Origin: Candidatus Komeilibacteria bacterium
Lineage (GTDB): Bacteria > Patescibacteriota > Patescibacteriia > UBA1558 > 2-01-FULL-52-15
DNA length: 64,000 nucleotides
Assembly (NCBI GenBank): GCA_043801745.1
Contig: JAZDLR010000016.1
Location: 1,535-65,534 of the forward strand
Direction of reading: 5' to 3'
Part shown: in pieces, positions 2,810 through 60,402 of the stretch
Layout: each line of letters begins with the position of its first letter
How positions within the stretch are numbered: the first letter of the stretch is position 1
Program-made: the position numbers and the translations under genes
The notes under the pieces: model-generated
The model's database searches: none
Seen by the model: only the letters and a program-made list of their open reading frames with translations
Told to the model about the DNA's origin: nothing

Positions 2810-2901
2810 ATAGCAACCACAATCTGTCCAGCTTGACTTCCGATTTTAGCTCTGGTAAAACACCCCAATCTAGTAAGCTCCCTCACCTCAGGAGGCAACG
2901 C

Positions 2902-3159
2902 ATGGATAATAAGCATCAAGCTGATCCGCATTGCCTTATCTGCGGCGGTAATGGTCACTACCAGCCAACACCGGAGAGCCCGGAAGTTCCTTGTGAAGAG
3001 TGTGATGATTCCATTTTTTTTGATTTCATCAATGACCCATCCCTGCCGGAAAACTATCGTCAGGAAGTTGCCGCTCTACTTGCCCAGATAAGGCAACAGC
3101 GAAAAGAACGGTGGGAAAGAGCTCAACAGCAGTCCCAAATCAACCCCTCGCCGAGTTAA
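2902..3159 (+). CDS. small zinc-ribbon-like protein (hypothetical)
   Basis: GGAGG at 2891-2895 six nt before ATG 2902 (internal to track ORF 2833..3159); CLICGG...CEEC Cys pairs. Confidence 0.4.
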   Translation: MDNKHQADPHCLICGGNGHYQPTPESPEVPCEECDDSIFFDFINDPSLPENYRQEVAALLAQIRQQRKERWERAQQQSQINPSPS

Positions 3160-3195
3160 TGTAACGCGGCGGGGGGTTTGTGCTATACTCAACCC

Positions 3196-3831
3196 ATGAA
3201 ATACCTAATTATTGTTATTGTCGTTATTATATTGGCCGCTGGCGGAGTAGCCGGCTGGTATTATTATCGGCCACAACAACCCAGTCCAGTCGTACTACCC
3301 CCGACCGGACAACAAGTATATACTAATTCGTCCTACCATTTTTCGGCAAAATATAATCCGCCCATCATAGCAACCGAAGACAAACAACAAATGCAGACCT
3401 CGGGCTATATTCCCGGCTGTGATCCGGACACTAGTCTGGTTTGTTTTATTTATCCGGCTGATGCTTTTGGTAAAACTAATTTTGGTGGCGCCGGTGTCTC
3501 AGTTTCAGTGCTGGCAAATTTAACCAATGAAACCACTTGTCTGGCCACACAACAAAATGATGGCTTATTAGCCACATCAACAGTTATGAATAATCTTACC
3601 TGGCAAACCTGGAGTTTTAGCGACGCGGCCACCAGTCACCGTAGTAACGGCTATAATTATCGTTCTTGGCAAAACAATCTTTGCTGGCAACTACAAACCA
3701 GAATTAATAGTACTGTCTTTGAGGTTTATGCCCCCGGAATGATTGAACTTTTTACTGCCACCGAGGAAGAAACCGTCAACCAGGCTCTACAAAAAACTAT
3801 TAACAGTTTTCAGCCGCCAAAAAGCAGTTAG
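3196..3831 (+). CDS. secreted/membrane-anchored hypothetical protein
   Basis: N-terminal TM/signal anchor KYLIIVIVVIILAAGGVAGWYYY; extended -10 (tgcTATACT, 3180-3188) seven nt upstream of ATG 3196 suggests a leaderless start inside track ORF 3178..3831. Confidence 0.45.
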   Translation: MKYLIIVIVVIILAAGGVAGWYYYRPQQPSPVVLPPTGQQVYTNSSYHFSAKYNPPIIATEDKQQMQTSGYIPGCDPDTSLVCFIYPADAFGKTNFGGAGVSVSVLANLTNETTCLATQQNDGLLATSTVMNNLTWQTWSFSDAATSHRSNGYNYRSWQNNLCWQLQTRINSTVFEVYAPGMIELFTATEEETVNQALQKTINSFQPPKSS

Positions 3832-3959: not shown

Positions 3960-4271
3960 ATGTCCACCAAGTTATATGTAGGCGGTTTGCCCTACAGCAC
4001 CACTGACGCTGAATTGAAGGAAGCCTTCTCTCAAGCCGGTACTGTCGTCTCCGCTTCGGTAATTGTTGACAAAATGACTAATCGCTCCCGAGGCTTCGGC
4101 TTCGTGGAAATGAGCACCCCTGAAGAGGGACAAGCTGCCATTTCCATGTGGAACGGTCAAGATTTTGCCGGCAGAAAGTTGACAGTCAATGAGGCCCGCC
4201 CTATGGGTGATAAGCCTCGTAGATCCTTTGATCACGATTCCGATCGTGCTCCGAGACGATCATCCTGGTAA
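3960..4271 (+). CDS. RRM-domain RNA-binding protein
   Basis: RNP-2 LYVGGL and RNP-1 RGFGFVEM motifs; Arg/Asp-rich tail. Confidence 0.85.
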   Translation: MSTKLYVGGLPYSTTDAELKEAFSQAGTVVSASVIVDKMTNRSRGFGFVEMSTPEEGQAAISMWNGQDFAGRKLTVNEARPMGDKPRRSFDHDSDRAPRRSSW

Positions 4272-4313: not shown

Positions 4314-4754
4314 TTAGTTATTACTTTCTGTTGTTTTCCCGTCAAAGTGTTCTTCCCGGGCTTCGGCTTCTGCTTTAGTAGCCCGCTCAATGCCATCCTG
4401 GTGCTCCGGTGGAGAATAAACCGTATACAACTTCATGGGCGTATCAGTAGAAGTATTAATGATATTATGCTTTGCCCCGGCCGGAACAACTACTGCATAG
4501 CCGTCTTTCAATTCATATTCAATATCATTTAAGATTGCCTTGCCATTACCGGAATCAATACGGATAAACTGGTCTAAGGTGTGTACCTCCATGCCGATAT
4601 CTTCACCTGGCAACAAACTCATCAGCACCAGCTGGCTGTGCTGGGCCGTATAAAGAACCTTACGGAATGAATTGTTCCCTAATGTTTCCTGCTCTAGATT
4701 TACGACGTAGCCCTTCATAAAACTATTGTAGCACGTAGCCCCTTTCAACCGCAA
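4314..4754 (-). CDS. cupin-domain protein
   Basis: Cupin_2-like two-His motifs (GMEVHTLDQF ... VVVPAGAKHNIINT); track ORF begins at TTG 4754, alternative ATG (MKGYV) at 4718. Confidence 0.65.
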   Translation of the reverse strand: MRLKGATCYNSFMKGYVVNLEQETLGNNSFRKVLYTAQHSQLVLMSLLPGEDIGMEVHTLDQFIRIDSGNGKAILNDIEYELKDGYAVVVPAGAKHNIINTSTDTPMKLYTVYSPPEHQDGIERATKAEAEAREEHFDGKTTESNN

Positions 4755-5359: not shown

Positions 5360-5821
5360 ATGAAAAAAAGCTGGATAATTCTGACTCTTATTTTGGCGGT
5401 CGGCACATTATTTGCCTGGTACACAGTTTATAATGATTTCTCCCTATTTTATAATTTAGAGGGTACGGTGCTGAAAATCAATAACTGTGCCATTCCTAAT
5501 CCAGTAACCACTCCTTGCTTTTACGGCGCCTTTGCTTTTCTGATAGCTTTTATCTGGTCAATTATGCTACTGCGAAAACCGCTGCAATTGGCGCTTCAGG
5601 GCTTAAAAAAACTGCTCTGGCTGCTGGTCGCCAGCGTCCTGTTTGCCTGGGGTAACTTTGTTTACTCCTTGATAACCTTTTACCAAACCAAAGACAGCGG
5701 CCAAGCCATCGGCTGTTCCGGACAATTAGTCACTAACCCCTGGACTACACCCTGTTTTATCGGGGCCTGCATCTTCTTGACAGCCCTAGTGGTTGCTGTG
5801 ATACTCTACCGGCGGAAATAG
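5360..5821 (+). CDS. membrane protein with internal two-fold repeat (hypothetical)
   Basis: Repeated segments NPVTTPCFYGAFAFL and NPWTTPCFIGACIFL, each followed by a TM helix. Confidence 0.45.
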   Translation: MKKSWIILTLILAVGTLFAWYTVYNDFSLFYNLEGTVLKINNCAIPNPVTTPCFYGAFAFLIAFIWSIMLLRKPLQLALQGLKKLLWLLVASVLFAWGNFVYSLITFYQTKDSGQAIGCSGQLVTNPWTTPCFIGACIFLTALVVAVILYRRK

Positions 5822-5874
5822 AGATCGTTGTTTTGAACCTATAGTTCAGTAAGAGGATCCGCGACAACTTAGAT

Positions 5875-5948
5875 GGGCCCGTAGTAAAGTGGTATTACAC
5901 GGCATTCGCATTGCTGAGGCGGGAGTTCGATTCTCCCCGGGTCCACCA
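5875..5948 (+). tRNA. tRNA-Ala (anticodon CGC)
   Basis: Hand-folded cloverleaf: acceptor GGGCCCG/CGGGTCC with G3:U70, D-stem GTAA/TTAC, anticodon stem CGGCA/TGCTG with loop TTCGCAT, T-arm GGGAG-TTCGATT-CTCCC, encoded CCA. Confidence 0.75.
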
Positions 5949-5951
5949 TGT

Positions 5952-6020
5952 GGGTCCATCTGAGTTGTCAGGACATTCGCATTGCTGAGGTAAGGAGTTC
6001 GAGTCTCCTCGGGTCCACCA
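5952..6020 (+). pseudogene. degenerate tRNA-Ala-like copy (tRNA fragment/pseudo-tRNA)
   Basis: Shares anticodon region cattcgcattgctgagg and T-arm/3' end ggagttcgagtctcctcgggtccacca with the adjacent tRNA-Ala, but D and anticodon stems do not pair. Confidence 0.4.
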
Positions 6021-6088
6021 ATGGTTCGGGCAGTTCCCCGCCTCCATAAAATCAAATAGAGCGGGTCCGCCTTTGGCGGAGATTCTGC

Positions 6089-6137
6089 TCGCCTCGCTGA
6101 GCGAGAGCGAAGCGGGCCTAGGTCCACCATTTCAGAT
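6089..6137. repeat. 49-bp direct repeat, copy 1 (tcgcctcgctgagcgagagcgaagcgggcctaggtccaccatttcagat)
   Basis: Identical to 8503-8551; ends in tRNA 3'-end-like GGTCCACCA. Confidence 0.9.
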
Positions 6138-6184
6138 TTGCCGAAGCCTTGGGAACAACTGTTGAAAATTTATTCAAATAATTT

Positions 6185-8413
6185 ATGAATAATAATCTTG
6201 AACAACCAAACATTGAGAATCGGCCACCAGTTGAGGCAAAAAAGGAAATTCCGCAGTCGGTTAAAACCATAAAAAAACTTGCCGCGAAATACCCAGAAAT
6301 GGGCTGGCTCACCGGCGATATTGATGCTACGCCAGAGACGAGTATCTCGGATCAAACCGAGGGCACTATTGGTAAGTATATTTTCCCAAATCTTGACAAA
6401 AAAGATTTGATTGAGTTCGACAGAACCGCAGTCGGGATACTAACTCTCCAGTGGGCGGCAAATGGAGATTATGAAAGTTTTACTGCTTGCCAAAAGGGGC
6501 CGACAAAATTAACGCCGGAGGATTTTACAAAACTTCAAGAATATACAAAATCGATTTTACAAAACCCGGAAGATTTTGAGGCAATGGAAACTTTTATGGT
6601 CATCAACGACCTCGGTAAAATTAAGAGTGTTGTAGAAAATATCGCAGAGAAATCAGGAGTTAGAGATGTTGATCACGATAGAATGCTTCTTGTTGGGTTG
6701 GAGCAACACCCTGATATTTCACCGAGCTTTCAAAAATTATCGCCCCGCCACAAAGAGTTAATACTCAATGGCCTAAAGACAAAATTCAACATTGGACAAT
6801 TTATCCAAGGCGAAAATGTACCCGCGAGCCTTGAGGGGCTAAAAGGTATAGATGAGGAAAGCTTGAAATTCTATCTCTTGCATGCACTTTATGATATCGC
6901 TGGAGCGGCAGGTCACTCTGTACAAAATGGATCAATGGTAATGAACGAGCCAACATACGAAAATTTCCGCTTGGCAATCGACTCACTCGAAAAATTGGGT
7001 GAGGGGCAAACTACTGACGAAGCGTATGACGCGTATCTTGCCCAGAAAGCGGAAAAATTTGGTTTCGATATATCAGTTCAGGCGGATCGAGCCACTACAC
7101 GAATCTGTTGTATGCTTAGAACTTCTAAAGTGGGGGAAGCGCAGGAGGTTTTGCGGGTGTTTTCAGAACTGCCGCAAAATACTCGCGCGATACTCGAGAA
7201 TGACCTGAACATGCGAGGAACTAATGACGGTATCGCAACGCTGATTTACTATGCTCCTGCATTTCTTGCAAATCTTCAAAAAAAATTTAGTGAGAGCGGG
7301 GACCCAAATTCTTCTAAAAAAGCACTCGCGCTTGGTTTGGGTACTTTTGCCAGAGTATTTCAAGAGGCGCACATCGCAAATAAAGGAAGGGTAGGGAACG
7401 GTGTATATACTGTTATGGCGTCTCCACTTGCGAAAGTAGCTGCTGAAAACCCCGCTAAATTATTGACACAGGATATAAATCTAAAAACTATTGGTAATGA
7501 TGCGGAAATTGAGCTCACTGATGTTCCAGTAGTTGATAAGGATAAATTTCAAAAAATTGAAAGCTTGACAGAAATTCCCGGTAAGAAAATAGTTGTGGTG
7601 GGAATTGGCGGCGGGTCGGATTGCGTACAAGCAGCATTGCTTGCAGAGTTACTTAAAAAATCAGAAAAAGAATGTCCTTGTGTTATTTCAGTTCGGACAG
7701 AAAAAACAGGATCACAGGGTGCGGGCGGAAAAGTTGGAGAGAAAAGAACAGTAGAAAATCATGGCGGGGAAATTAAAAAGGGTGTTTATCTGATTACGCC
7801 AAAAACTACGGGGTCTGGTAGATTTTTGGAAAATATACCAACGAGTGATATCCCTGTATATTTAATTATCGAACAAGATGGCATTGGCTTGTCGGAACAA
7901 ATAAATTCTGTGTTAGAACAGGTCGGCGGCGTAGATACAGTTGTTGCAGTTGATACTGGTGGTGATGCTTTGTACTCTACAACTGGTCACGATGAAACAA
8001 AAGCAACGCCAGATCAGGATTTGCGAAGCCTTCAAGCGATCAGCAATCTTTCTGGAGTACAAAAAATAAGCTGTGAAATTGCTGTCGGGATAGACACACC
8101 GCCGAATGGTGAGAGTGTATTACTTGACGCAGAGGCAAAACACTACGAGCCAACGCCAGAGGAAGCGACCATGATTTTAGAAAAATATCGGGAGTGGCAA
8201 ATGGACGGTTCAAATGAAGCACGTTTTGGTAAGACACCTCTTGCTTGGCAAGAAGCACTACAAAACCATTTTGGTTTTCAAGAAATAAATTTGCCTAAAA
8301 GAGTAGTACTTGATAAAAAGAATCCGTGGAAACCCTTTGTGCATGTGCAACCAAGCACAAAAGGGATGTTCTTTATGGATGTTGAAAAACATTTGAAAAG
8401 TATTGGTAAGTGA
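6185..8413 (+). CDS. hypothetical 742-aa protein (orphan; C-terminal GIGGGSD ... DTGGD nucleotide-binding-like domain)
   Basis: Long ORF with different codon flavour (A/purine-rich) than neighbours; located exactly between the 49-bp direct repeats. Confidence 0.55.
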   Translation: MNNNLEQPNIENRPPVEAKKEIPQSVKTIKKLAAKYPEMGWLTGDIDATPETSISDQTEGTIGKYIFPNLDKKDLIEFDRTAVGILTLQWAANGDYESFTACQKGPTKLTPEDFTKLQEYTKSILQNPEDFEAMETFMVINDLGKIKSVVENIAEKSGVRDVDHDRMLLVGLEQHPDISPSFQKLSPRHKELILNGLKTKFNIGQFIQGENVPASLEGLKGIDEESLKFYLLHALYDIAGAAGHSVQNGSMVMNEPTYENFRLAIDSLEKLGEGQTTDEAYDAYLAQKAEKFGFDISVQADRATTRICCMLRTSKVGEAQEVLRVFSELPQNTRAILENDLNMRGTNDGIATLIYYAPAFLANLQKKFSESGDPNSSKKALALGLGTFARVFQEAHIANKGRVGNGVYTVMASPLAKVAAENPAKLLTQDINLKTIGNDAEIELTDVPVVDKDKFQKIESLTEIPGKKIVVVGIGGGSDCVQAALLAELLKKSEKECPCVISVRTEKTGSQGAGGKVGEKRTVENHGGEIKKGVYLITPKTTGSGRFLENIPTSDIPVYLIIEQDGIGLSEQINSVLEQVGGVDTVVAVDTGGDALYSTTGHDETKATPDQDLRSLQAISNLSGVQKISCEIAVGIDTPPNGESVLLDAEAKHYEPTPEEATMILEKYREWQMDGSNEARFGKTPLAWQEALQNHFGFQEINLPKRVVLDKKNPWKPFVHVQPSTKGMFFMDVEKHLKSIGK

Positions 8414-8502
8414 TGCCGCTGACGAAAAAACAGTCCGTCCGAGCGAGGACATGGCGAAAGGGGCGCGGGGAGAATTCCGCCATGCCCGAACGGATGAAAT
8501 TG

Positions 8503-8551
8503 TCGCCTCGCTGAGCGAGAGCGAAGCGGGCCTAGGTCCACCATTTCAGAT
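8503..8551. repeat. 49-bp direct repeat, copy 2
   Basis: Perfect copy of 6089-6137. Confidence 0.9.
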
Positions 8552-8581
8552 ATAAAATAATAGCTTTGACTATATAATATT

Positions 8582-10273
8582 GTGTCTGCGCTATCCCTAG
8601 AAACGATTCAGATTATTGCCTGGTCAAAAGTACTGTTATTTTTGGCCGTTATTGTTGCCTTGTTAATTGTCCGCTTTAAAAATAAACCCTGGGCCTGGAG
8701 CTTATTTGCCAGTATCACTGTCACTGCCAGCTACTTAATTATTTCCTGGCCGCTACAGAAAATGTGGTGGGGTAATAATGGCGATGAAATTTTCATTATC
8801 AGTTTCTTTACCCAGGCCCTAAAGTCTAATCCCTTTCAAGACTACTACTACCTAGGGTTACCGGCTTTCTATCCGCCGCTATATTTTCAAGTCATTGGTC
8901 TGGTTTCTCGGCTCTGGGCAGCTAATGCTATTAGCGCGGCCAAATTTGGAACGGCTCTCACTTTTTTCCTGTGGTTTAGCGGAACCTATCTGGGATTACG
9001 TCTGTGCCGGGGCAAACAATCAGAAAAAAGTTCCAGTGAAACTCTGACTCCTTGGCTCTGGTTCACAATACCATTGCTTTTTTTCTTTCTGGTTGATTTC
9101 AACGACTTGATACTTAAGCCCTACGAAACTTTTCCGGCCTTGCTGTCGGTTTTTTGGTTGGGTTTATTATGGCTATCACTTAATAAAAACCGCTGGTCAA
9201 TTAAGGAATATTTATTTTTTGGTATTTCTGGAGGCATCCTATTCTTAACCTACTATTTTTGGTGGTTGATATTAGTACCAGCACTAATAGGTCTGGCGTT
9301 AACTCATTCTCAACGTCTTATTAAATTCCTGCGAATAATTATAGTCGGCTTTATTACCTTTATTATCTCCGGTATATATCTTGTCCCCCTATTTTTGTCT
9401 TACAAATCCGGCATGGAAAATTGGCAAGCTCTTTTCTTTGTTCCGCAAGATTTTTCTACCTTTCTGCCCTTCGTCAACCTGTCTATCAAAACTCCTCTGC
9501 TAATTGCCGGTTTACTCGGCCTTATTATTTATTGCCGCCGGCCCTTTGTCCGAGCCAATTTGGCCATTTTAATTACCTGTTATTTATATCAAATAGTCAG
9601 CTTAGTATTATTTCTGGCCGGCGGCCATCCGTTTCAAGCCGCCAAACCCTTCCTTTTCCTGGGAACAGCCACTCTGACAGTTGGCTGCGCTTATTCACTT
9701 AGCGGACTCTGGAACCACTACGTTACTCCTTTAACCAGCGGCCGCCGGCAAATAATAAGCTTGGCACTAATCGTACTATCACTACCATTTTGGCCCATGA
9801 CTACCTTCATAGATGACGTAGTTGTCAGAAATCAGATTGAAAAGGACTTGAAGGCGCCATCGGCCTATTATTTGGCCAGCCATATTCAGCAAGCTGTTCC
9901 TGATTATCAAAATAAAATCTGGCTCAGTAGTGGTATCCCGGAAATTAACGCCTATTTACCGCTGCATTATTTTATTGCGCACAATCCTCACTTCAGTCAC
10001 CCGGCAGCCAAATACTCTGAGCGGGAGAAAGTTCTTAAAGAGTTAGTCTCGGCGACTGCAGCCAACTTTACGGCACTGGTCCGCGCGTCCGGGATCAACG
10101 CTTTATTACTTTATAAAACCGCCAATAGCGATTCTTATCCTTTATTCCTCTGGGCCGATAACTATCCTAATGGCGGCCTAGAGCGAGAATTACAAATTTC
10201 CAAAGTTCTGATTGATAGTCTGCACTGGAGAACTGTATACGAAGACAGCGAATGGCAAGTCATTATTCCCTAA
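8582..10273 (+). CDS. GT-C-type polytopic membrane protein (putative membrane glycosyltransferase, PMT/ArnT/YfhO-like)
   Basis: >10 TM helices followed by a soluble C-terminal domain; GTG start 3 nt after a TATAAT box (possibly leaderless). Confidence 0.45.
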   Translation: MSALSLETIQIIAWSKVLLFLAVIVALLIVRFKNKPWAWSLFASITVTASYLIISWPLQKMWWGNNGDEIFIISFFTQALKSNPFQDYYYLGLPAFYPPLYFQVIGLVSRLWAANAISAAKFGTALTFFLWFSGTYLGLRLCRGKQSEKSSSETLTPWLWFTIPLLFFFLVDFNDLILKPYETFPALLSVFWLGLLWLSLNKNRWSIKEYLFFGISGGILFLTYYFWWLILVPALIGLALTHSQRLIKFLRIIIVGFITFIISGIYLVPLFLSYKSGMENWQALFFVPQDFSTFLPFVNLSIKTPLLIAGLLGLIIYCRRPFVRANLAILITCYLYQIVSLVLFLAGGHPFQAAKPFLFLGTATLTVGCAYSLSGLWNHYVTPLTSGRRQIISLALIVLSLPFWPMTTFIDDVVVRNQIEKDLKAPSAYYLASHIQQAVPDYQNKIWLSSGIPEINAYLPLHYFIAHNPHFSHPAAKYSEREKVLKELVSATAANFTALVRASGINALLLYKTANSDSYPLFLWADNYPNGGLERELQISKVLIDSLHWRTVYEDSEWQVIIP

Positions 10274-23824: not shown

Positions 23825-24763
23825 TTACTTTTTCCTTTCCCTTCCTTTAATATACCTTTCCAGGGCATCTTTTGAACTTAGCCAATTTCTACCTTCTTTA
23901 TAGGCCTCTATTTTACCTTGCCTAACTAATAGATTTAAATATTTAGCCGAATAAGGTGTGCCTTTGGCTAACTCGGTTAAAGAGATTAACTTTCCCGCGC
24001 CTTTCTTGGGCCCTAGTGTCTTTAGGTAGATATCAAAAGACCTCTCTATTGTTTGGGCAATAAAATTAACTAGCGGAACGTAATCACCGCCGTCGGCCTT
24101 GGCTAGGACGTTATAATATTTTTTCCTGTCATTCTTTAAAATGATTGTCAGCGGATAACCGGCTCTCATTAAGATCAGATTCATCACCAATCTGGCTGTC
24201 CGGCCATTGCCGTCAAAAAATGGATGAATACTTACTAATTTATGATGAAGCAGGGCGGCTAATTCAATGGCTGATATCTTCTTACTGTTTTGCTTCAACC
24301 AAACTATTAGGCCATTCATTAATTGAGGTACTTGAAAGGCCTCGGGCGGCGTATGCTTGGCGCCCATAATAAAAACATTGGCGGTTCTGTACTTTCCGGC
24401 TTGGTCTTTTTCCGTTTCTTGAACAACTATTTGATGAATGGAGCGGATTAAACCTTCGGAAACAGTATTCCGTTTGTCCTTATCAACTAAATCATAGAGG
24501 TATTCCAGGGCCGCATATTGATCTTTGGTTTCCAGATGATCCTTTAGGGGCTTGCCTTTAACAGTGATACCCTCATTAATAACTAAAAAGGTTTCTTTTA
24601 GGGTTAAACTATTACCCTCAATAGCGTTGGAGTTATAGGTCATTTCCAACCTAAACTTTTCCTGCAGTTTTTTCACAGCAGAGGCGCGTAATGGACGAAG
24701 TTTATTTAGTTCCTTCCTTTTAGCTTCCAAACGCGAGGCAATAATTTTATTCAAGTATTTCAT
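23825..24763 (-). CDS. Fic-family protein (AMPylase-type Fido domain)
   Basis: Fic motif HPFFDGNGRTARL; internal inhibitory-helix-like motif SNAIEGN; C-terminal wHTH-like region. Confidence 0.85.
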   Translation of the reverse strand: MKYLNKIIASRLEAKRKELNKLRPLRASAVKKLQEKFRLEMTYNSNAIEGNSLTLKETFLVINEGITVKGKPLKDHLETKDQYAALEYLYDLVDKDKRNTVSEGLIRSIHQIVVQETEKDQAGKYRTANVFIMGAKHTPPEAFQVPQLMNGLIVWLKQNSKKISAIELAALLHHKLVSIHPFFDGNGRTARLVMNLILMRAGYPLTIILKNDRKKYYNVLAKADGGDYVPLVNFIAQTIERSFDIYLKTLGPKKGAGKLISLTELAKGTPYSAKYLNLLVRQGKIEAYKEGRNWLSSKDALERYIKGRERKK

Positions 24764-24903
24764 AGATAATAACTTAATATGGTATAGGTGGCTTTTTAGA
24801 GTATACCATATTAGGGGAAAAAGTAAAGTTAGCTACCTAGCAATAAAATCCGTATAAATCGCCGCCAGTAGTGCCAACACCTCCAATCCCTCTCCCTGAT
24901 CAT

Positions 24904-29501: not shown

Positions 29502-30146
29502 ATGTTTAATTTTCTATTTTCCTGGCTGTTACCAACCGCCGCCAAGGCACAAGCGCTTGGCCTGATTGATAATATTCCCTGCGTGCAAAATGGCTATATA
29601 TTACCTAGCGGCCAATGGTCGCCCGGAACCTGCACCCTGGATAACATCACAGCCGGGGTCGGCTATTTAATAAATTATGGTGTAGCCATTAGCGGCGCCC
29701 TGGCTCTACTGATGTTTATTATTGGCGGTTGGTATTTGGTGGCCAGCGCCGGCCGCAAAGACTGGATAACTCGCGGCAAAAACATTCTGATCAACACCGT
29801 GTTTGCTATCTTCTTCATCTTAGGAGCCTGGCTGCTGGTCAGGGGAGTACTGGACATTGTTGGCTCTAATATTATTTTCCAAAGCGGCGAAACAACTACT
29901 ACCAGCTGTCAGGGTGAGGGCACCCAATGTAATGTCACCGGCAAATGCAAAGTGGTGAATAATATTGGCGAGTGTGTTAATCCTTGTGTCTATTTAGCCA
30001 CCGATTCAAAACCCTATTCTTGCCACAATAGCCTAGACGAATGTTTCCCCGCTGGAACCGCGTGCGTCAACTATCCCGATAACTGCCTGGAAACTCAAGG
30101 TCTGTGTCTAAGTAATCAATATTGCTGTTTCCCGTCTGCCAGATAA
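29502..30146 (+). CDS. pilin-like protein (T4SS TrbC/VirB2-type 2-TM core) fused to a C-terminal Cys-rich domain
   Basis: Signal peptide plus two TM helices as in the downstream pilins, then a 90-aa domain with 14 Cys. Confidence 0.5.
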   Translation: MFNFLFSWLLPTAAKAQALGLIDNIPCVQNGYILPSGQWSPGTCTLDNITAGVGYLINYGVAISGALALLMFIIGGWYLVASAGRKDWITRGKNILINTVFAIFFILGAWLLVRGVLDIVGSNIIFQSGETTTTSCQGEGTQCNVTGKCKVVNNIGECVNPCVYLATDSKPYSCHNSLDECFPAGTACVNYPDNCLETQGLCLSNQYCCFPSAR

Positions 30147-31021: not shown

Positions 31022-31489
31022 TTGATGATGGGTTGGGGCTTACACTATAACTTCATGACTTTCCGTCTATTCTTTTTTTCAACCATTGCCTTTCTTTTGG
31101 CATCACCGCTAAAAGCGGCTGCCAGTCCGGCAGGTGATGGGTTACAAAAGGCAGTTAAAAATTCGGGCCTTCCCACTGGTTCAATCGAATCTATGGCGGC
31201 CAATTTTATTATCGTTGTCTTAGGAATTGTCGGCGTGCTTTTTATGCTGCTGATTCTTTATGGCGGTTATGTTTGGATGATGGGCAGTAGAGCCGGCAAA
31301 GAAAAAGAAATTAATAATGCCAAGACTATTTTAACTAACGCCACGATTGGTCTGCTGCTTGTGCTGGCCGCTTATGCTATTACTTATTTCATTGTCCAAC
31401 AAATCAACTTTGCCACTACCGGCACTTTGGAACCGGACCTTGATACCGGTGATCCCGGCGTACCCTATGTTGATCCTGGACCTGCTTAA
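31022..31489 (+). CDS. pilin-like protein (TrbC/VirB2-type), paralog
   Basis: Signal peptide plus 2 TM; YVWMMGSRAGKEKEI motif; start may be a downstream ATG. Confidence 0.55.
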   Translation: MMMGWGLHYNFMTFRLFFFSTIAFLLASPLKAAASPAGDGLQKAVKNSGLPTGSIESMAANFIIVVLGIVGVLFMLLILYGGYVWMMGSRAGKEKEINNAKTILTNATIGLLLVLAAYAITYFIVQQINFATTGTLEPDLDTGDPGVPYVDPGPA

Positions 31490-38868: not shown

Positions 38869-39576
38869 ATGTCCGGCCATTCCAAGTGGGCCACTACCAA
38901 ACGCCAAAAAGCGGTTACTGACGCCAAGCGCAGTAATCTTTTTACTAAGTTGGCGAAAAACATTGCTGTGGCTGCCCGCGATGGAGCCGATCCGGCTATG
39001 AATTTTAAATTGCGCATTGCGATTGACAAGGCCAAAGAGTACAGCATGCCCAAAGATAATATTGAACGGGCTATTGCCCGTGGTAGCGGTACCGGCGGTG
39101 GTCAGGCAGTTGAAACTATTCTGTACGAAGCTTATGGCCCGGAAGGAATAGCTTTATTGATTGAAACCGTAACTGATAATAAAAATCGTTCGGCCGGCAC
39201 AGTTAAGGCTATCTTGAGTAAAAACGGCGGTAGTTTGGGCAGTGCCGGCAGCGTTCAGTGGCAATTTAATCTTCAAGGGATTCTGACTTTAAAAATTTCG
39301 AAACTTACTGACGAGCAAGAGTTACAATTAATCGATGCGGGGGCCGAAGATTTCATTGAACTGGGCGATTTGCTACAAATTATCTCAGCTCCAGAAAATT
39401 TGGAAAAGATCAAACATCAAGTTCAAGCTTTAAATCTGCCGCTAACCGACGCCGCCCTAGAATACCGACCCAAAGATTTGATTACGCCTAAAGATCCCGA
39501 GAGAATAATCCATCTCTTAGAATTACTGGAAGACGACGAAGACATCAATAACGTTTATACCAACGCCAACGTCTAA
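38869..39576 (+). CDS. yebC: YebC/PmpR-family DNA-binding transcriptional regulator
   Basis: N-terminal MSGHSKWATTKRQKAVTDAKR ... motif; conserved linkage with ruvC. Confidence 0.9.
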   Translation: MSGHSKWATTKRQKAVTDAKRSNLFTKLAKNIAVAARDGADPAMNFKLRIAIDKAKEYSMPKDNIERAIARGSGTGGGQAVETILYEAYGPEGIALLIETVTDNKNRSAGTVKAILSKNGGSLGSAGSVQWQFNLQGILTLKISKLTDEQELQLIDAGAEDFIELGDLLQIISAPENLEKIKHQVQALNLPLTDAALEYRPKDLITPKDPERIIHLLELLEDDEDINNVYTNANV

Positions 39577-40064
39577 TGGCCACACCAGCCACACTAATTT
39601 TGGGTATTGACCCTGGCTTTGCCGATACTGGCTGGGGCGTGATTAGTTTTGCTGGTCAGGGACAAATGCTGGCCTGCGGCAGCATCAGTACACCCAAAAG
39701 CGACTCCTTTTCTGACCGTTTATTAGCTTTGGGTCAACAACTGACAACCATAATCAAAACCTACCGGCCCGACATGGTAGCAATTGAAGAGCTATTTTTT
39801 AATACCAATGTTACAACCGGCATTAAAGTTGCCATGGCCCGCGGAGTCATTATGTATGTCTGCCGTCAGGCCGGATTGCCGGTACGTGAATTCACTCCAG
39901 GACAGATTAAGCTGGCACTGACTTCTGACGGCAGGGCTTCCAAAGCTCAAATGGGCAAAATGATCCAACTATTACTTAACCTATCTGTCCTACCACAGCC
40001 GGACGACGCAGTTGATGCTCTAGCCTGCGCCCTAACCTGTGCTCACACCAAACTCTACGTTTAA
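39576..40064 (+). CDS. ruvC: crossover junction endodeoxyribonuclease RuvC
   Basis: ILGIDPG catalytic Asp region, E67-like residue, C-terminal DAxDALAxA motif. Confidence 0.9.
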   Translation: MATPATLILGIDPGFADTGWGVISFAGQGQMLACGSISTPKSDSFSDRLLALGQQLTTIIKTYRPDMVAIEELFFNTNVTTGIKVAMARGVIMYVCRQAGLPVREFTPGQIKLALTSDGRASKAQMGKMIQLLLNLSVLPQPDDAVDALACALTCAHTKLYV

Positions 40065-51547: not shown

Positions 51548-51652
51548 TGGAGCGGGTGATGGGATTCGAACCCACGACGTCTTCCCGAGGTAAGAGGCAG
51601 ATCACACATACCCCGCCAGAAGAAAGCGCCCTACCTCTGGGCCACACCCGCT
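51548..51652 (-). tRNA. tRNA with ~29-nt insertion in anticodon loop (anticodon CUG/Gln-like if insertion removed at 37/38)
   Basis: Acceptor GCGGGTG/CACCCGC, D-arm GCCC-AGAGGTA-GGGC, T-arm GTGGG-TTCGAAT-CCCAT, CCA encoded; anticodon stem CTTTC/GGAAG interrupted by hairpin GGGGTA...TACCTC. Confidence 0.5.
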
Positions 51653-51666
51653 CTAAAAGAACGAAT

Positions 51667-51743
51667 TGGAGTAGCCAACCGGACTCGAACCGGCAACCTC
51701 CTCACCGAAGGGGTGAGCCGCTCTACCTTTGAGCTATGGCAAC
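51667..51743 (-). tRNA. tRNA-like gene with atypical anticodon loop (CCCUUCG; anticodon unresolved, CUU/UUC-like)
   Basis: Acceptor GTTGCCA/TGGCTAC (one mismatch), D-arm GCTC-AAAGGTA-GAGC, anticodon stem CTCAC/GTGAG, T-arm GCCGG-TTCGAGT-CCGGT, CCA encoded. Confidence 0.45.
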
Positions 51744-57678: not shown

Positions 57679-58788
57679 TTATTGTTTTATCGGCATTATC
57701 AAATAACGGAAACTGGTGTCGCTTTCCGGCGACATTAAAGCCGGACCGCTACTATCATTAAGTTTAATTTTTCCTTTATCATTATTAAGATTATTAATAC
57801 CATCTAATAGGTAGCGGTAATTAAATACTATTTCTCCCGCCTTACCGTCAACATCAGCCTGAACCCGTGAAATATTGTCTCCTGACATACTATTCTGCGC
57901 CCGCAACTGAATTTCTTTAGTGTCGGGAACATAAGAAACCCTAACATCATTAATTCCTGGCTGGCAAAATAATGCAGTAGTTTTAATAGTCGGAGCTAAA
58001 GATGAGACCTGAAAAGAAATAGTGCTGGTAAAACTAGTTGGTATAATCTGCTGATAATCCGGATAGTGGCCAACAACTATCCTGGATATTACTTCGGTTG
58101 GTCCAATTACTACCTTAATTTGATTATCATTAACCATAATTATTGTCTCTTCTGTTTCGTTATCTTCTGCCAATATTTTAGCTAATTGCTGCACAGTTTT
58201 AAGAGGAATAATTAATTTCTGTTCCTTGTCTGATCCTTTGATCAGGGCCAGGTGTTTTTCCGCCAACCGATAGCTATCGGTTGCCACCAAAGTCAGTTTA
58301 TCTTCAATAAAACTAAAAAATACCGCATTAAGCTCTGGTCGTCCCTCATCACTACTAGCAGCAAACAATACTTGATTAAGACCGTCTCGCAGAATGGCAG
58401 TTGCTATAACTATTGTCGTCTCGGGAGATATTTCAGGAATTAGCGGAAAATCATTAGCCGACTCCCCTTTTATCTTGGTGGTGTGATTCTCCCCCTGAAT
58501 GACCAGGGTGTTTTCCTGCAGTTCAATACTAATATTTTCCCTTTTTAGCGAGTGGACAAAGTCTCCTAGCAGTTTAGCATTGACTGTAAAGCTACCTGCC
58601 TCTTCAATTTTACCTCTGACTTTACTTTTTATTCCTATCTCAAGGTTAGTGGTAACTAAAGTTAGGCCTTCTTTATCGGCTTGCAAAAGAACATTATTTA
58701 AAATCGGTAAATTAGGATGTTTACCGGCTAGTCCAAAAATCAACTGTAAACCTTTGGACAAATTTTCCTGTGTACAACTTAATTTCAT
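57679..58788 (-). CDS. dnaN: DNA polymerase III subunit beta (sliding clamp)
   Basis: Three-domain clamp length; N-terminal MKLSCTQENLSKGLQ typical; adjacent to dnaA. Confidence 0.9.
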   Translation of the reverse strand: MKLSCTQENLSKGLQLIFGLAGKHPNLPILNNVLLQADKEGLTLVTTNLEIGIKSKVRGKIEEAGSFTVNAKLLGDFVHSLKRENISIELQENTLVIQGENHTTKIKGESANDFPLIPEISPETTIVIATAILRDGLNQVLFAASSDEGRPELNAVFFSFIEDKLTLVATDSYRLAEKHLALIKGSDKEQKLIIPLKTVQQLAKILAEDNETEETIIMVNDNQIKVVIGPTEVISRIVVGHYPDYQQIIPTSFTSTISFQVSSLAPTIKTTALFCQPGINDVRVSYVPDTKEIQLRAQNSMSGDNISRVQADVDGKAGEIVFNYRYLLDGINNLNNDKGKIKLNDSSGPALMSPESDTSFRYLIMPIKQ

Positions 58789-59037
58789 ACTATATGTATA
58801 TATAAAGATAAGATAATAATAGAAGAGAGGTGGATACTGTTGATGACTGACGGAATTAGTGAATTAACTTAGAGAAAACGACGTAATCTCTCCCCAGTAG
58901 CATGTGAATATAGTTGGTGGTAAGTGACTAGTTGTTCACACCTGATTAATTTTGTGAAAGGTGACGAAGAAATAGAAGTGGTTTGTTAACAGGTTTGTGG
59001 ACTTTTTATACACACGGCCGGTGGATAAAAATAATTA

Positions 59038-60402
59038 CTATAATTGATAAATTTTTTGTCGTAAAAGAGCGACGTCATTTTTTATTTTTTCATCTCGCTG
59101 CAAACTTTCTTTGATTTTATTGCAGGCATGCATGGCAGTGGTGTGGTCACGGCCACCCAACTCCTGTCCGATGTTGGGGAAAGAGGCGTTCATTTCTTCT
59201 CGCATTAACCACATAGTAATCTGGCGGGGAACTACCAGCTCTTTCTTGCGGCAGGTTCCGACTAAATCGTCAATACTAATTTCAAAAAATTCAGCCACTG
59301 ATTGGATTAGGCGGCGCGCTGTCAAACCGCCCTTCTTAGGGTTGCTACTAATAGTAGATAAGATGCCGCGGGTGGACTCTACCGTTGGTAAGGAGTTGTT
59401 AAGTTGATGAAAAGCAATAATACGGTTTAAGGCGCCCTCTAATTCACGGATATTATCTTTAATATTTTCAGCAATGGACTGAATAATTTCCTTGTCCAGA
59501 GAAAAGGCTCTTTCTTGGCATTTGGCTTGTAAAATAGCCACCCTGGTCTCAAAATCTGGGGCAGAAATATCAGCGATCATTCCCCATTCAAAGCGCGAAA
59601 CCAGGCGGTTTTCAATAGCTGGAATAGCTTTGGGTGGTCGGTCAGAACTAATAATTATCTGTTTATTGGCTTGGTGTAGGGCGTTGAAGGTGTGAAAAAA
59701 TTCTTCTTGGGTCTGCTCCTTGCCGGCGATAAATTGAATATCATCGATCAGTAGAACGTCAACATTACGGTAGGCCTTTTTAAATTTTTCCGTTTCCCCG
59801 GTTTTAATAGAGGCGACAAAGTCATTGGTAAACTTTTCACTATTAATATAGAGAATCTTGGTACCGGGGTTCGTTTCCAGAATATGATTACCGACAGCCT
59901 GAATTAAATGAGTTTTTCCTAGCCCTACCCCACCATAAAGAAATAGCGGATTATAAACTTGTCCCGGCTTGGCAGCAACAGCCTTGGAGGCAGCATGCGC
60001 CAACTCATTACCCTTGCCGACTATGAAACTGTTAAAAGTGTATTTTTTATTAAGACCAAATTTATTCTGCGTAAAAGTATTGGTGTCGTTGGTGGTTGGT
60101 CCCAGCTTTTCTTCGGTATTGCGGTGTACTGCTTTTTCTACTGGCGCCGATTGAGCGGAAACTTTGTAGCTAATTTTCAATTTTCTATCACCGCCCAACA
60201 AATTATTAACAGCCGTAGCAATTTGTTGGTGATATTTATTTTCCAGCCAAGCTTTAGTAAAGGCGTTGGGCACACCAACAATTAAAATATCAGGCTCACG
60301 ATCAAAAACAAAAGTATTTTTAAACCAAGTGGTAAAATTAGCTTTAGAAATTAACAGTTCAAGTTCGCCAAGAACTGCTTGCCAGAGTTGATTATTGTCC
60401 AT
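59038..60402 (-). CDS. dnaA: chromosomal replication initiator protein DnaA
   Basis: AAA+ Walker A GGVGLGKTHL, Walker B LLIDDIQF, sensor and C-terminal DNA-binding domain. Confidence 0.9.
   Translation of the reverse strand: MDNNQLWQAVLGELELLISKANFTTWFKNTFVFDREPDILIVGVPNAFTKAWLENKYHQQIATAVNNLLGGDRKLKISYKVSAQSAPVEKAVHRNTEEKLGPTTNDTNTFTQNKFGLNKKYTFNSFIVGKGNELAHAASKAVAAKPGQVYNPLFLYGGVGLGKTHLIQAVGNHILETNPGTKILYINSEKFTNDFVASIKTGETEKFKKAYRNVDVLLIDDIQFIAGKEQTQEEFFHTFNALHQANKQIIISSDRPPKAIPAIENRLVSRFEWGMIADISAPDFETRVAILQAKCQERAFSLDKEIIQSIAENIKDNIRELEGALNRIIAFHQLNNSLPTVESTRGILSTISSNPKKGGLTARRLIQSVAEFFEISIDDLVGTCRKKELVVPRQITMWLMREEMNASFPNIGQELGGRDHTTAMHACNKIKESLQRDEKIKNDVALLRQKIYQL

What the first reader, a model, noticed from the sequence alone, without database searches (positions are those of the whole stretch)
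5846..8551. 49-bp perfect direct repeats ending in a tRNA 3'-end-like GGTCCACCA bracket a single 742-aa orphan gene next to tRNA-Ala
The sequence tcgcctcgctgagcgagagcgaagcgggcctaggtccaccatttcagat occurs at 6089-6137 and again, base-for-base, at 8503-8551. The only gene between the copies is the 742-aa ORF 6185..8413. Immediately upstream lie a well-formed tRNA-Ala(CGC) (5875-5948) and a degenerate copy of its 3' two-thirds (5952-6020). The motif GGTCCACCA (T-arm/acceptor/CCA) therefore recurs four times: at 5940-5948, 6012-6020, 6122-6130 and 8536-8544. That is the pattern left by serial site-specific integration into the 3' end of a tRNA gene (attL, nested att scars, attR). No integrase or excisionase is present between the repeats, so this would be a degraded or non-autonomous island whose sole cargo is the orphan protein. 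Its A/purine-rich codon flavour also differs from flanking genes.
Basis: partly seen in the sequence, partly recalled or inferred. Interest (0 to 1): 0.75.

Follow-up and report, generated by a model that had tools for sequence, protein, structure and literature searches.

The report
One-gene islet beside tRNA-Ala
A 2.4-kb piece of foreign DNA carrying one gene of unknown function sits in a decayed copy of a tRNA-Ala gene in a Candidate Phyla Radiation bacterium, flanked by perfect 49-bp repeats, which is the ordinary scar of site-specific integration at a tRNA gene, here without its integrase.

Summary
The sequence facts hold: an exact 49-bp direct repeat (6089-6137, 8503-8551), tRNA-Ala(CGC) at 5875-5948, a 91-93% copy of its 3' part at 5969-6020, and GGTCCACCA four times (the last two at 6121 and 8535, one base off). 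The gene is not an orphan. It is a DUF6829+DUF1152 protein with over 120 homologs in Patescibacteria, Bdellovibrionota, Alphaproteobacteria and others.

The 49-mer is a decayed tRNA-Ala 3' half. It aligns to tRNA positions 32-74 (p about 6e-4) and starts at the anticodon, which is the usual crossover class for tRNA-integrating elements.

DNA shared with the closest relatives (81-83% identical, all in unrelated contexts) spans about 6164-8495. This fits almost exactly between the repeats. The gene has the most deviant codon usage among long ORFs in the window.

One relative (L113) has the same cassette just after a tRNA-Ser and an 18-nt copy of that tRNA's 3' end.

No integrase occurs in the ORFs scanned across the window. 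The 49-mer core was absent from the genome and metagenome collections.

Best reading: an att-flanked, integrase-less islet like a cis-mobilizable element. An empty site could not be found, and the order of trailer and tRNA fragments is not classical.

The parts
5863..5874 (+). Leader of tRNA-Ala, GACAACTTAGAT. It is complementary to 5958-5969.
   Evidence: The fold of 5855-5975 gives an 18-bp leader/trailer stem with z = -4.46. The duplex energy of -17.8 kcal/mol is the strongest of 52 tRNAs tested.
5875..5948 (+). Functional-looking tRNA-Ala(CGC) with G3:U70 and an encoded CCA.
   Evidence: ARAGORN. Rfam RF00005 at 64.2 bits against a gathering score of 29.
5952..6020 (+). psi1. GGGTCC plus the trailer ATCTGAGTTGTC (5958-5969), followed by a 52-nt copy of tRNA positions 24-74 (5969-6020) that ends in CCA.
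   Evidence: Repeat families D2 and D4 at 91-93% identity. The unit does not fold better than shuffles as a tRNA. Rfam gives only a weak T-arm/acceptor match.
6063..6088 (+). Possible 5' part of a third decayed tRNA-Ala unit (psi2). It starts GGGTCCG against GGGCCCG in the tRNA. This assignment is weak.
   Evidence: Read directly from the sequence. The alignment of 6021-6088 to the tRNA is not significant (p = 0.28).
6089..6137 (+). Left copy of the 49-bp direct repeat (attL-like). It is a decayed tRNA-Ala 3' half running from U33 and the anticodon CGC to CCA, plus 8 nt. It contains a dyad TCGCCTCGC-TGA-GCGAGAGCGA and a GGGC-CUAG-GUCC-ACCA mini-helix.
   Evidence: Exact repeat. It aligns collinearly to tRNA positions 32-74 with p about 6e-4, or p about 3e-3 without the terminal 9-mer. 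Fold.
6137..6181 (+). Relic of the 3' end of an XRE-type HTH gene. It reads FAEALGTTVENLFK*. This is the left border of the foreign cassette.
   Evidence: In L002 an intact 64-aa HTH_3 gene (3e-20) ends ...IAKALNVPIEDLIK* at the same place. The nucleotide similarity has p = 0.028 for the window, 7e-4 for L113 and 2e-3 for L114.
6185..8413 (+). Cargo gene of 742 aa with a DUF6829 domain (aa 70-398, HD-phosphohydrolase-like) and a DUF1152 domain (aa 471-624, LmbE-like or CARF-like Rossmann fold).
8433..8495 (+). Conserved GC-rich hairpin downstream of the cargo gene (stem CATGGCG 8450-8456 / CGCCATG 8478-8484). This is the right border of the foreign cassette.
   Evidence: Window 8426-8495 matches L002 2840-2913 at 78%. 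There is one compensatory pair, CATGGCG/CGCCATG against CGTGGCG/CGCCACG. No T-run follows, and it is not called as a + strand terminator.
8503..8551 (+). Right copy of the 49-bp direct repeat (attR-like). Its GGTCCACCA ends 38 nt before the start of the next host gene.
   Evidence: In relatives L008 and L091 a tRNA-Ala(TGC) ending ...GGTCCACCA lies 28-29 nt upstream of the orthologous gene.
8582..10273 (+). Host flank: an AftA_N-type membrane glycosyltransferase-like gene. It is not part of the insert.
   Evidence: Pfam AftA_N at 2e-12. Its exact match is the Candidatus Komeilibacteria MAG protein P0121, and the next-best relatives are at most 56% identical.

Best explanation
The region is a small att-flanked genomic islet at a tRNA-Ala locus of a Candidatus Komeilibacteria (Patescibacteria) genome.

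Downstream of the functional tRNA-Ala(CGC) lie two decayed tRNA-Ala copies, psi1 and psi2. A circular DNA of 2,414 bp carried a relic of an XRE gene, the DUF6829-DUF1152 gene, a 3' hairpin and one 49-bp att core. It recombined with the identical 49-bp stretch of psi2. That stretch runs from the anticodon-loop position to 8 nt past CCA. The result is one core copy on each side of the insert.

This is the geometry made by tyrosine integrases that cross over at the anticodon loop of tRNA genes. The recombinase is not encoded in the islet. The element is therefore either mobilised in trans or is the stump of a larger island that lost its integrase and most of the XRE gene.

Shown: the repeats, their tRNA origin, the foreign nature and limits of the insert, the absence of an integrase in the window, and a parallel case at a tRNA-Ser (L113). 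Inferred: the circular intermediate, the type of recombinase, and that psi1 and psi2 are scars of earlier events.
For: - The 49/49 exact direct repeat occurs only twice in the window. Sequence identity stops sharply on both sides: 6021-6088 and 8414-8502 are unrelated.
- The repeat aligns to tRNA-Ala positions 32-74, starting at U33 and the anticodon (p about 6e-4). Islander assigns 2083 of 3919 tDNA islands to the anticodon-centred class, and a 44-bp tDNA repeat is a published example (PMC4383910, PMC9897764).
- Nucleotide homology to the closest cassettes runs 6164/6180-8422/8495. That lies inside 6138-8502, while the flanks are unrelated in L001, L002, L003, L113 and L114.
- The gene has the most deviant synonymous codon usage among 19 long ORFs, and low GC3.
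- L113 has tRNA-Ser, then an exact 18-nt copy of its 3' end, then the same cassette.
- Every family member that lies within 1.2 kb of a tRNA is on the tRNA's 3' side.
- In L002 the cassette, with an intact XRE gene, lies beside a frameshifted large serine recombinase, so that locus is a mobile-element context.
- The 49-mer core is absent from 185,579 species-representative genomes and from JGI metagenomes, so it is not a dispersed repeat there.
Against: - No integrase or excisionase was found among about 50 window ORFs. No family member was found in IMG/VR.
- The left repeat is not in the functional tRNA. Both repeat copies are identically decayed, so an incoming element would have needed a 49-bp match to a host-specific pseudo-site.
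- The intact tRNA keeps a trailer complementary to its leader, ahead of psi1 and psi2. The same is true in L113. The classical model does not predict this.
- L113 shows no second copy of the tRNA fragment within the 939 nt available downstream of the gene.
- None of the other 79 family loci has flanking repeats of 18 nt or more, apart from one 20-mer.
- GC content of the insert equals that of the window.
- No empty site was found. Only 64 kb of the 156.6-kb source contig was searchable for more 49-mer copies or an integrase.
Confidence: 0.5

Rival explanations
1. The insertion was not site-specific. A linear foreign fragment, cut inside the XRE gene, was joined at a staggered break or by replicative template switching (homology-facilitated or microhomology-mediated illegitimate recombination). 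Fill-in then duplicated 49 bp of target. The position next to the tRNA reflects only that tRNA flanks tolerate insertions.
For: The left border cuts through a gene, leaving only a relic of the XRE C-terminus. A dedicated element would not be expected to do that. There is no recombinase. Both repeat copies are identical although the sequence is a decayed pseudo-site, which is what a target duplication produces.
Against: A 49-bp target duplication that starts exactly at the anticodon-equivalent base and ends 8 nt past CCA matches the att identity block of tDNA elements too well to be a random stagger (PMC4383910). L113 repeats the association with a different tRNA and a copy of its 3' end. The same truncated XRE relic is present in L113 and L114, so the truncation predates this insertion.
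Confidence: 0.17
2. RecA-dependent single crossover. A circular plasmid, phage or excised DNA happened to carry a tRNA-Ala-like fragment and integrated by homologous recombination with the chromosomal pseudo-tRNA copy. This gives the same repeat-insert-repeat layout without a site-specific recombinase.
For: The layout is identical to the product of site-specific integration. No integrase is present. The window encodes RuvC (39576-40064), so the host has at least part of the homologous recombination machinery.
Against: 49 bp is short for efficient RecA crossover. The identity block ends sharply at positions that match an att core. No plasmid or viral carrier of the gene was found.
Confidence: 0.12
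3. Assembly artefact. A separate small circular or strain-variable 2.4-kb sequence that shares the 49-mer was threaded into the chromosomal path of the MAG contig.
For: The source is a metagenome-assembled contig seen once (P0001 and P0121 have 1 contig each). Repeat-insert-repeat with exact repeats is the pattern produced when a circle is threaded through a shared k-mer. L002 shows odd 240-bp inverted repeats at a contig end.
Against: Even then the 49-mer would be shared by two real molecules, which is an attP/attB pair, so the biology would be the same. The repeat is tRNA-Ala-derived and sits next to tRNA-Ala. L113, an independent assembly, shows the cassette next to a tRNA with a fragment copy.
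Confidence: 0.08
4. The 49-mer is a functional RNA module, a hairpin plus a tRNA-Ala acceptor mimic ending in CCA. It would act as a processing or 3'-end signal, present after the tRNA cluster and after the cargo gene, and be kept identical by selection or gene conversion.
For: It folds into a 9-bp hairpin plus GGGC-CUAG-GUCC-ACCA, which reproduces G1-C72, G2-C71, G3-U70 and C4-G69 of tRNA-Ala. Both copies lie at the 3' ends of transcription units.
Against: The fold is no better than shuffles (z = -1.8, 11 of 200 shuffles fold as well). There is no Rfam match. There is no other copy in the window or in the collections. It is absent downstream of the gene in all relatives.
Confidence: 0.05

Closest known systems
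Genomic islands integrated in tRNA genes by tyrosine integrases (Islander class A, anticodon-centred att; PMC4383910, Williams 2002 as cited there)
   Same: Direct repeats made of a tRNA 3' part that starts at the anticodon loop and runs past the 3' end. Foreign cargo lies between them, on the 3' side of the tRNA. Extra tRNA fragments are present, as in tandem or past events.
   Different: There is no integrase. The insert is only 2.4 kb with one gene. The left repeat lies in a decayed tRNA copy 140 nt downstream of the functional tRNA and not in it. The tRNA keeps its own trailer.
Cis-mobilizable elements (CIMEs): elements that lost integration and transfer genes but keep attL and attR (definition in PMC6323972)
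   Same: An att-like repeat on each side, no recombinase and no transfer genes. It is plausibly the remnant of a larger integrative element.
   Different: CIMEs are described next to ICEs of Firmicutes and are mobilised by accretion with an ICE. No cognate ICE or integrase is known here, and mobilisation is untested.
Partial tRNA genes left by integration events (PMC9897764)
   Same: psi1 and the 49-mer are partial, non-canonical tRNA-like sequences beside a canonical gene, as described for archaeal and bacterial genomes (for example 44-bp repeats flanking PYG1).
   Different: Here three units lie in tandem within 260 nt, and the outermost pair brackets only one gene.
Integron gene cassettes (ORF plus attC hairpin)
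   Same: A single promoter-poor ORF followed by a conserved imperfect hairpin. The same ORF is found in many unrelated contexts.
   Different: There is no IntI, no cassette array and no 7-bp core sites at the borders. The borders are 49-bp tRNA-derived direct repeats.

Membership tests
tDNA-integrated genomic island (Islander criteria) | An intact tRNA gene forms one end of the island, with the repeat being part of the regenerated tRNA | tested here: not met
   The intact tRNA-Ala ends at 5948. The left repeat is at 6089-6137, inside a decayed unit that no tRNA model detects.
tDNA-integrated genomic island (Islander criteria) | A displaced tRNA fragment in direct orientation lies at the other end, starting at a known sublocation (anticodon loop, T loop or junction) | tested here: met
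   The 49-mer at 8503-8551 aligns to tRNA positions 32-74 on the same strand, starting at U33 and the anticodon (p about 6e-4).
tDNA-integrated genomic island (Islander criteria) | A tyrosine integrase gene lies inside the island | tested here: not met
   The only ORF is DUF6829+DUF1152. No PF00589, Resolvase or Recombinase hit occurred in about 50 window ORFs.
tDNA-integrated genomic island (Islander criteria) | Related genomes show an empty site with a single att copy | tested here: inconclusive
   The closest flanking-gene relatives are 52-56% identical. L008 and L091 have tRNA-Ala(TGC) 29 nt upstream of the ortholog with no insert. 21 other loci have no tRNA-Ala there.
Cis-mobilizable element (CIME) | Intact attL and attR with loss of integration and transfer genes | tested here: met
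   The 49-bp repeats are identical, and there is no recombinase or transfer gene between them. That the repeats are functional att sites is inferred, not shown.
Cis-mobilizable element (CIME) | A cognate integrative element or integrase uses the same att site | not testable with these tools
   Only 64 kb of the source genome is available. The 49-mer core has no match in the genome, metagenome or viral collections.
Transposon or insertion sequence with target-site duplication | Terminal inverted repeats just inside the duplication, and a transposase | tested here: not met
   There is no inverted repeat pairing 6138... with ...8502, and no transposase domain.
Dispersed repeat (REP or MITE-like) | Many copies at unrelated loci | tested here: not met
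   There are two copies in 64 kb, both at this locus, and none in the collections. The rest of the source genome was not searchable.
Integron cassette | An attC site with R/L boxes and an IntI or a cassette array nearby | tested here: not met
   No GTTRRRY core is seen at either border when the sequence is read directly. There is no integrase and no array.
Pfam DUF6829 / DUF1152 protein family | HMM score above the gathering threshold | tested here: met
   DUF6829 scores 240.3 bits against a cut-off of 27. DUF1152 scores 32.1 bits against 27.

The most novel reading that the evidence does not exclude
The DUF6829-DUF1152 cassette could be a minimal, integrase-less mobile unit of Patescibacteria that lands just downstream of complete pre-tRNA units by a non-classical route.

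At tRNA-Ala in the window and at tRNA-Ser in L113, the tRNA keeps its leader-complementary trailer. The cassette's left border carries a copy of that tRNA's 3' end finishing in CCA. In L113 the tRNA gene itself does not encode that CCA.

This pattern would fit an RNA-templated or tRNA-3'-end-dependent joining step, such as template switching onto a mature tRNA, better than a crossover inside the tRNA gene.
Probability: 0.07. Interest if true: 0.75.

Novelty: new member of a known kind. Interest (0 to 1): 0.33.

Why it matters
Mobile elements of Candidate Phyla Radiation bacteria are poorly described. This locus gives a precisely delimited example of gene gain at a tRNA site in such a genome, together with a second, independent instance of the same cargo at another tRNA.

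It also flags the DUF6829-DUF1152 protein as a horizontally moving gene. This protein is a predicted HD-like plus LmbE-like or CARF-like two-domain enzyme with no solved relative and no literature. It is concentrated in episymbiotic, predatory and host-associated lineages.

The mechanism itself, integration at a tRNA gene that leaves tRNA-fragment repeats, is textbook, so the finding is useful but not surprising.

Tried and rejected
- Rfam, at gathering and permissive thresholds, gave nothing for the 49-mer, psi2 or the 3' hairpin. Only weak tmRNA or T-arm-type echoes of psi1 appeared, so a tmRNA or permuted tmRNA was rejected.
- A 16-mer scan of viral contigs gave one hit (L010). It has no tRNA and an unrelated context, so it is a chance match.
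- Exact look-ups of the two flanking window proteins failed, because of GTG-start translation or different gene calls.
- The argument 'flanking gene at most 56% identical but cargo 85-87% identical, therefore recent transfer' was dropped. DnaA of this genome has database hits at 92/86/85%, so closer relatives exist on short contigs. Cassette copies also differ at about 40% of third codon positions.
- Flanking repeats or distal tRNA fragments were sought around 79+ family loci. None was found except in L113, where the copy is proximal.
- Searching IMG/VR for the gene found no relatives.
- PADLOC, a PDB sequence search and a literature search for the two DUF names gave nothing. Foldseek against the PDB gave no hit below E = 1e-3.
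- A terminator role for the repeat or the hairpin was considered. No + strand terminator-like site is called there.
- LTR-and-primer-binding-site, CRISPR-associated transposon homing-spacer and integron readings were considered and set aside. The defining genes and geometry are missing.
Full report
OBSERVATION

The window was read at 5400-8900. The 49-mer TCGCC...TTTCAGAT occurs at 6089-6137 and 8503-8551 with no mismatch. No third copy exists in the 64 kb even when 3 mismatches are allowed, and shuffles expect none.

ARAGORN and the Rfam tRNA model both call tRNA-Ala(CGC) at 5875-5948, at 64.2 bits. Its 3' part is repeated at 5969-6020 with 91-93% identity.

GGTCCACCA occurs four times against 0.28 expected, at 5940, 6012, 6121 and 8535. 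The one credible ORF between the repeats is 6185-8413. The described sequence facts are therefore correct.

THE GENE IS NOT AN ORPHAN

Pfam finds DUF6829 (aa 70-398, 4e-71) and DUF1152 (aa 471-624, 9e-8). The protein database holds the identical protein from a Candidatus Komeilibacteria MAG (contig of 156,579 bp) and 119 further relatives.

A scan of one genome per species returned 79 loci. They include many Saccharibacteria and other Patescibacteria, Bdellovibrionota, Alphaproteobacteria including Rickettsiales, Clostridia, Omnitrophota and a Micrarchaeota archaeon.

PDB sequence search, Foldseek against the PDB, PADLOC and the literature gave nothing.

THE INSERT IS FOREIGN AND ITS LIMITS COINCIDE WITH THE REPEATS

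The closest relatives are L001/L011 (82.7% nt), L113 (81.3%), L002 (80.6%), L114 (76.7%) and L003 (74%). They sit in five unrelated contexts.

Nucleotide homology to the window starts at 6161-6181 and ends at 8422-8495. The shared DNA therefore lies inside 6138-8502, the interval between the repeats. It leaves about 25-40 nt on the left and 7 nt on the right. The 49-mer itself is absent from all these loci.

Among the 19 window ORFs of at least 400 aa, this gene has the largest synonymous codon-usage distance, 0.189 against 0.075-0.152. Its GC3 is 0.349 against 0.454 +/- 0.072, and its purine content is 0.574 against 0.495 +/- 0.043. Overall GC is the same as the window.

One argument was dropped. 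The cargo has 85-87% relatives while the neighbouring AftA_N-like gene has at most 56% relatives. This is not good evidence for recent transfer, because DnaA of this genome has hits at 92, 86 and 85%.

The cassette copies differ at about 40% of third codon positions. The known relatives are therefore not the donor, and the perfect 49/49 repeat is much younger than that divergence.

WHAT THE 49-MER IS

A local alignment places the 49-mer collinearly on tRNA-Ala positions 32-74, from U33 and the anticodon CGC to CCA, followed by 8 further bases. The score is 31 against 14.7 +/- 2.9 in shuffles, p about 6e-4. Without the terminal 9-mer, p is about 3e-3. It is therefore a third, strongly decayed copy of the tRNA-Ala 3' half.

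The base where the repeat begins corresponds to the anticodon loop. Islander assigns just over half of all tDNA islands (2083 of 3919) to an anticodon-centred att site. It defines islands by a regenerated tRNA plus a displaced fragment (PMC4383910). A 44-bp repeat of this kind is illustrated in PMC9897764.

Upstream of the left copy, GGGTCCG at 6063 resembles the tRNA 5' end GGGCCCG. Taken alone, that stretch is not significantly tRNA-like (p = 0.28). Rfam does not detect psi1 or psi2 as tRNAs.

The 49-mer folds into a 9-bp hairpin and a 4-bp acceptor-like mini-helix followed by ACCA. The fold is no better than shuffles.

BORDERS OF THE CASSETTE

In L002 a complete 64-aa XRE-type HTH gene (HTH_3, 3e-20) ends 11 nt before the cargo gene. 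The window, L113 and L114 retain only its last codons: window FAEALGTTVENLFK*, L114 ...QVESLIK*, against L002 ...IAKALNVPIEDLIK*. The nucleotide similarity has p = 0.028, 7e-4 and 2e-3 for the window, L113 and L114. The left border therefore cuts an older two-gene module, and this truncation is shared by three loci.

On the right, a GC-rich hairpin (8433-8495) is shared with L002 and shows one compensatory change.

In L002 the module lies between about 240-bp inverted repeats at a contig end. Next to it is a frameshifted large serine recombinase (Resolvase 2.4e-7, Zn_ribbon_recom 1.9e-10). That is a mobile-element context, though it may be partly an assembly artefact.

A PARALLEL CASE

L113 is an independent JGI contig. 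A tRNA-Ser(TGA) lies at 1968-2056. An exact 18-nt copy of its 3' end (GAATCTCACCCTCACCGC, starting in the T loop) lies at 2087-2104. About 20 nt later the same cassette begins (p = 0.003). No further copy lies in the 939 nt available beyond the gene.

In every family locus that has a tRNA within 1.2 kb, the gene lies on the tRNA's 3' side. These loci are the window, L113, L001, L003, L071, L085 and the Saccharibacteria group next to tRNA-Asn. Among the 79 species-representative loci checked for flanking repeats, none has one of 18 nt or more, apart from a single 20-mer in L035.

WHAT COULD NOT BE SHOWN

No integrase, excisionase or transposase occurs between the repeats or in about 50 ORFs scanned across the window. 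The gene family was not found in IMG/VR.

The 31-nt and 23-nt cores of the 49-mer have no match in the species-representative genomes or the JGI metagenomes. This argues against a widespread repeat. It also shows that the source genome is not in those collections, so only 64 kb of it was examined.

The exact flanking and cargo proteins occur on a single contig, so no strain without the insert is available. At greater distance, two contigs (L008 and L091, 52% identity in the flanking gene) have a tRNA-Ala(TGC) ending ...GGTCCACCA 28-29 nt before the orthologous gene. This resembles the position of the right 49-mer, whose CCA lies 38 nt before GTG 8582. The other 21 relatives have no tRNA-Ala there.

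AN UNEXPLAINED DETAIL

The tRNA-Ala leader (5863-5874) is complementary to 5958-5969, which lies between the tRNA and psi1. The L113 tRNA-Ser has a 22-bp leader-trailer stem of the same kind. These two are the strongest of 52 tRNAs tested, at -17.8 and -16.0 kcal/mol against a control first percentile of -10.5. The window's tRNA-Pro (-11.2) and L001 tRNA-Cys (-10.8) also exceed that percentile.

If these are native trailers, the intact tRNAs were not split by the integration, and the tRNA fragments lie after them. The classical model puts island DNA directly after the regenerated tRNA. The target here was therefore a pre-existing pseudo-tRNA copy, or the mechanism is not classical.

In L113 the fragment reads ...CACCG-CCA where the gene reads ...CACCG-CTC. 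That is only two bases of evidence that the copy derives from a CCA-bearing source.

MECHANISM AND RIVALS

The most economical account is recombination between a 49-bp core on a 2,414-bp circle and the same core in psi2. This gives core, cassette, core. It is the product of an anticodon-loop-type tyrosine integrase acting in trans, or the stump of a larger island after internal deletion. It corresponds to the published category of cis-mobilizable elements, which have intact attL and attR but no integration genes (PMC6323972). I give it 0.50.

The rivals are:
- illegitimate insertion with a 49-bp target duplication (0.17);
- RecA single crossover with a tRNA-like fragment on a circle (0.12);
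- assembly threading of a separate circle (0.08), which would still imply an attP/attB pair;
- a functional tRNA-like RNA module (0.05).

VERDICT

The 'orphan' label is wrong, and 'serial integration' is unproven.

This is a new member of a known kind of system, of moderate interest. It is one of few precisely delimited gene-gain events in a Candidate Phyla Radiation genome, and it shows that an uncharacterised two-domain protein family is mobile.

Noticed in passing
window 51551-51651 (-), next to tRNA-Lys(CTT) at 51667-51743 (-): Rfam finds a 101-nt tRNA (51.7 bits) that default ARAGORN misses. With introns allowed, ARAGORN calls tRNA-Gln(CTG) with a 29-nt insertion exactly at position 37/38. 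That is the archaeal and eukaryotic intron position. [quoted passage not shown].
   Followed up: partly
window 5863-5874/5958-5969 and 11874-11890/11967-11981; L113 1953-1974/2048-2069; L001 tRNA-Cys 4179-4251: Some tRNA genes in these Patescibacteria are bracketed by leader-trailer inverted repeats that extend the acceptor stem by 12-15 bp. Four of 52 tRNAs tested lie beyond the first percentile of mismatched controls. The two strongest are the tRNAs next to the cassette. They could be processing stems or a by-product of insertion events.
   Followed up: partly
L002 1-240 vs 2833-3070, and L002 3400-4581 (-): In the only locus with an intact XRE gene, the XRE-plus-cargo module lies between about 240-bp inverted repeats that touch the contig end. 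Next to it is a frameshifted large serine recombinase. A further inverted pair lies around 3130-3200 and 4640-4720. This could be an invertible or mobile segment, or an assembly artefact.
   Followed up: partly
L113 2087-2107: The copy of the tRNA-Ser 3' end continues as ...CACCG-CCA, whereas the tRNA-Ser gene itself continues ...CACCG-CTC. The copy may therefore come from a CCA-bearing template. Only two bases support this.
   Followed up: no
79 loci (for example L039-L066): In oral and gut Saccharibacteria the DUF6829-DUF1152 gene is syntenic, always 230-1070 nt from a convergent tRNA-Asn(GTT). This suggests vertical inheritance there, in contrast to the scattered contexts elsewhere. The family is concentrated in episymbiotic, predatory or host-associated lineages, and in Gastranaerophilales it is fused to dual-specificity phosphatase domains (P0116, P0117).
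   Followed up: partly
window 23828-24766 (-), 29502-30146 (+), 31022-31489 (+): A Fic/DOC protein with a C-terminal HTH_17 domain, and two T4SS-pilin-like small proteins, lie elsewhere in the window. No link to the islet was found.
   Followed up: no
window 57682-60402 (-): dnaN and dnaA lie here, so the window probably includes the chromosomal origin region.
   Followed up: no
L008 4364-4780: A strikingly GC-rich stretch lies just upstream of the tRNA-Ala(TGC) in an otherwise AT-rich relative. It may be foreign DNA at the 5' side of that tRNA.
   Followed up: no
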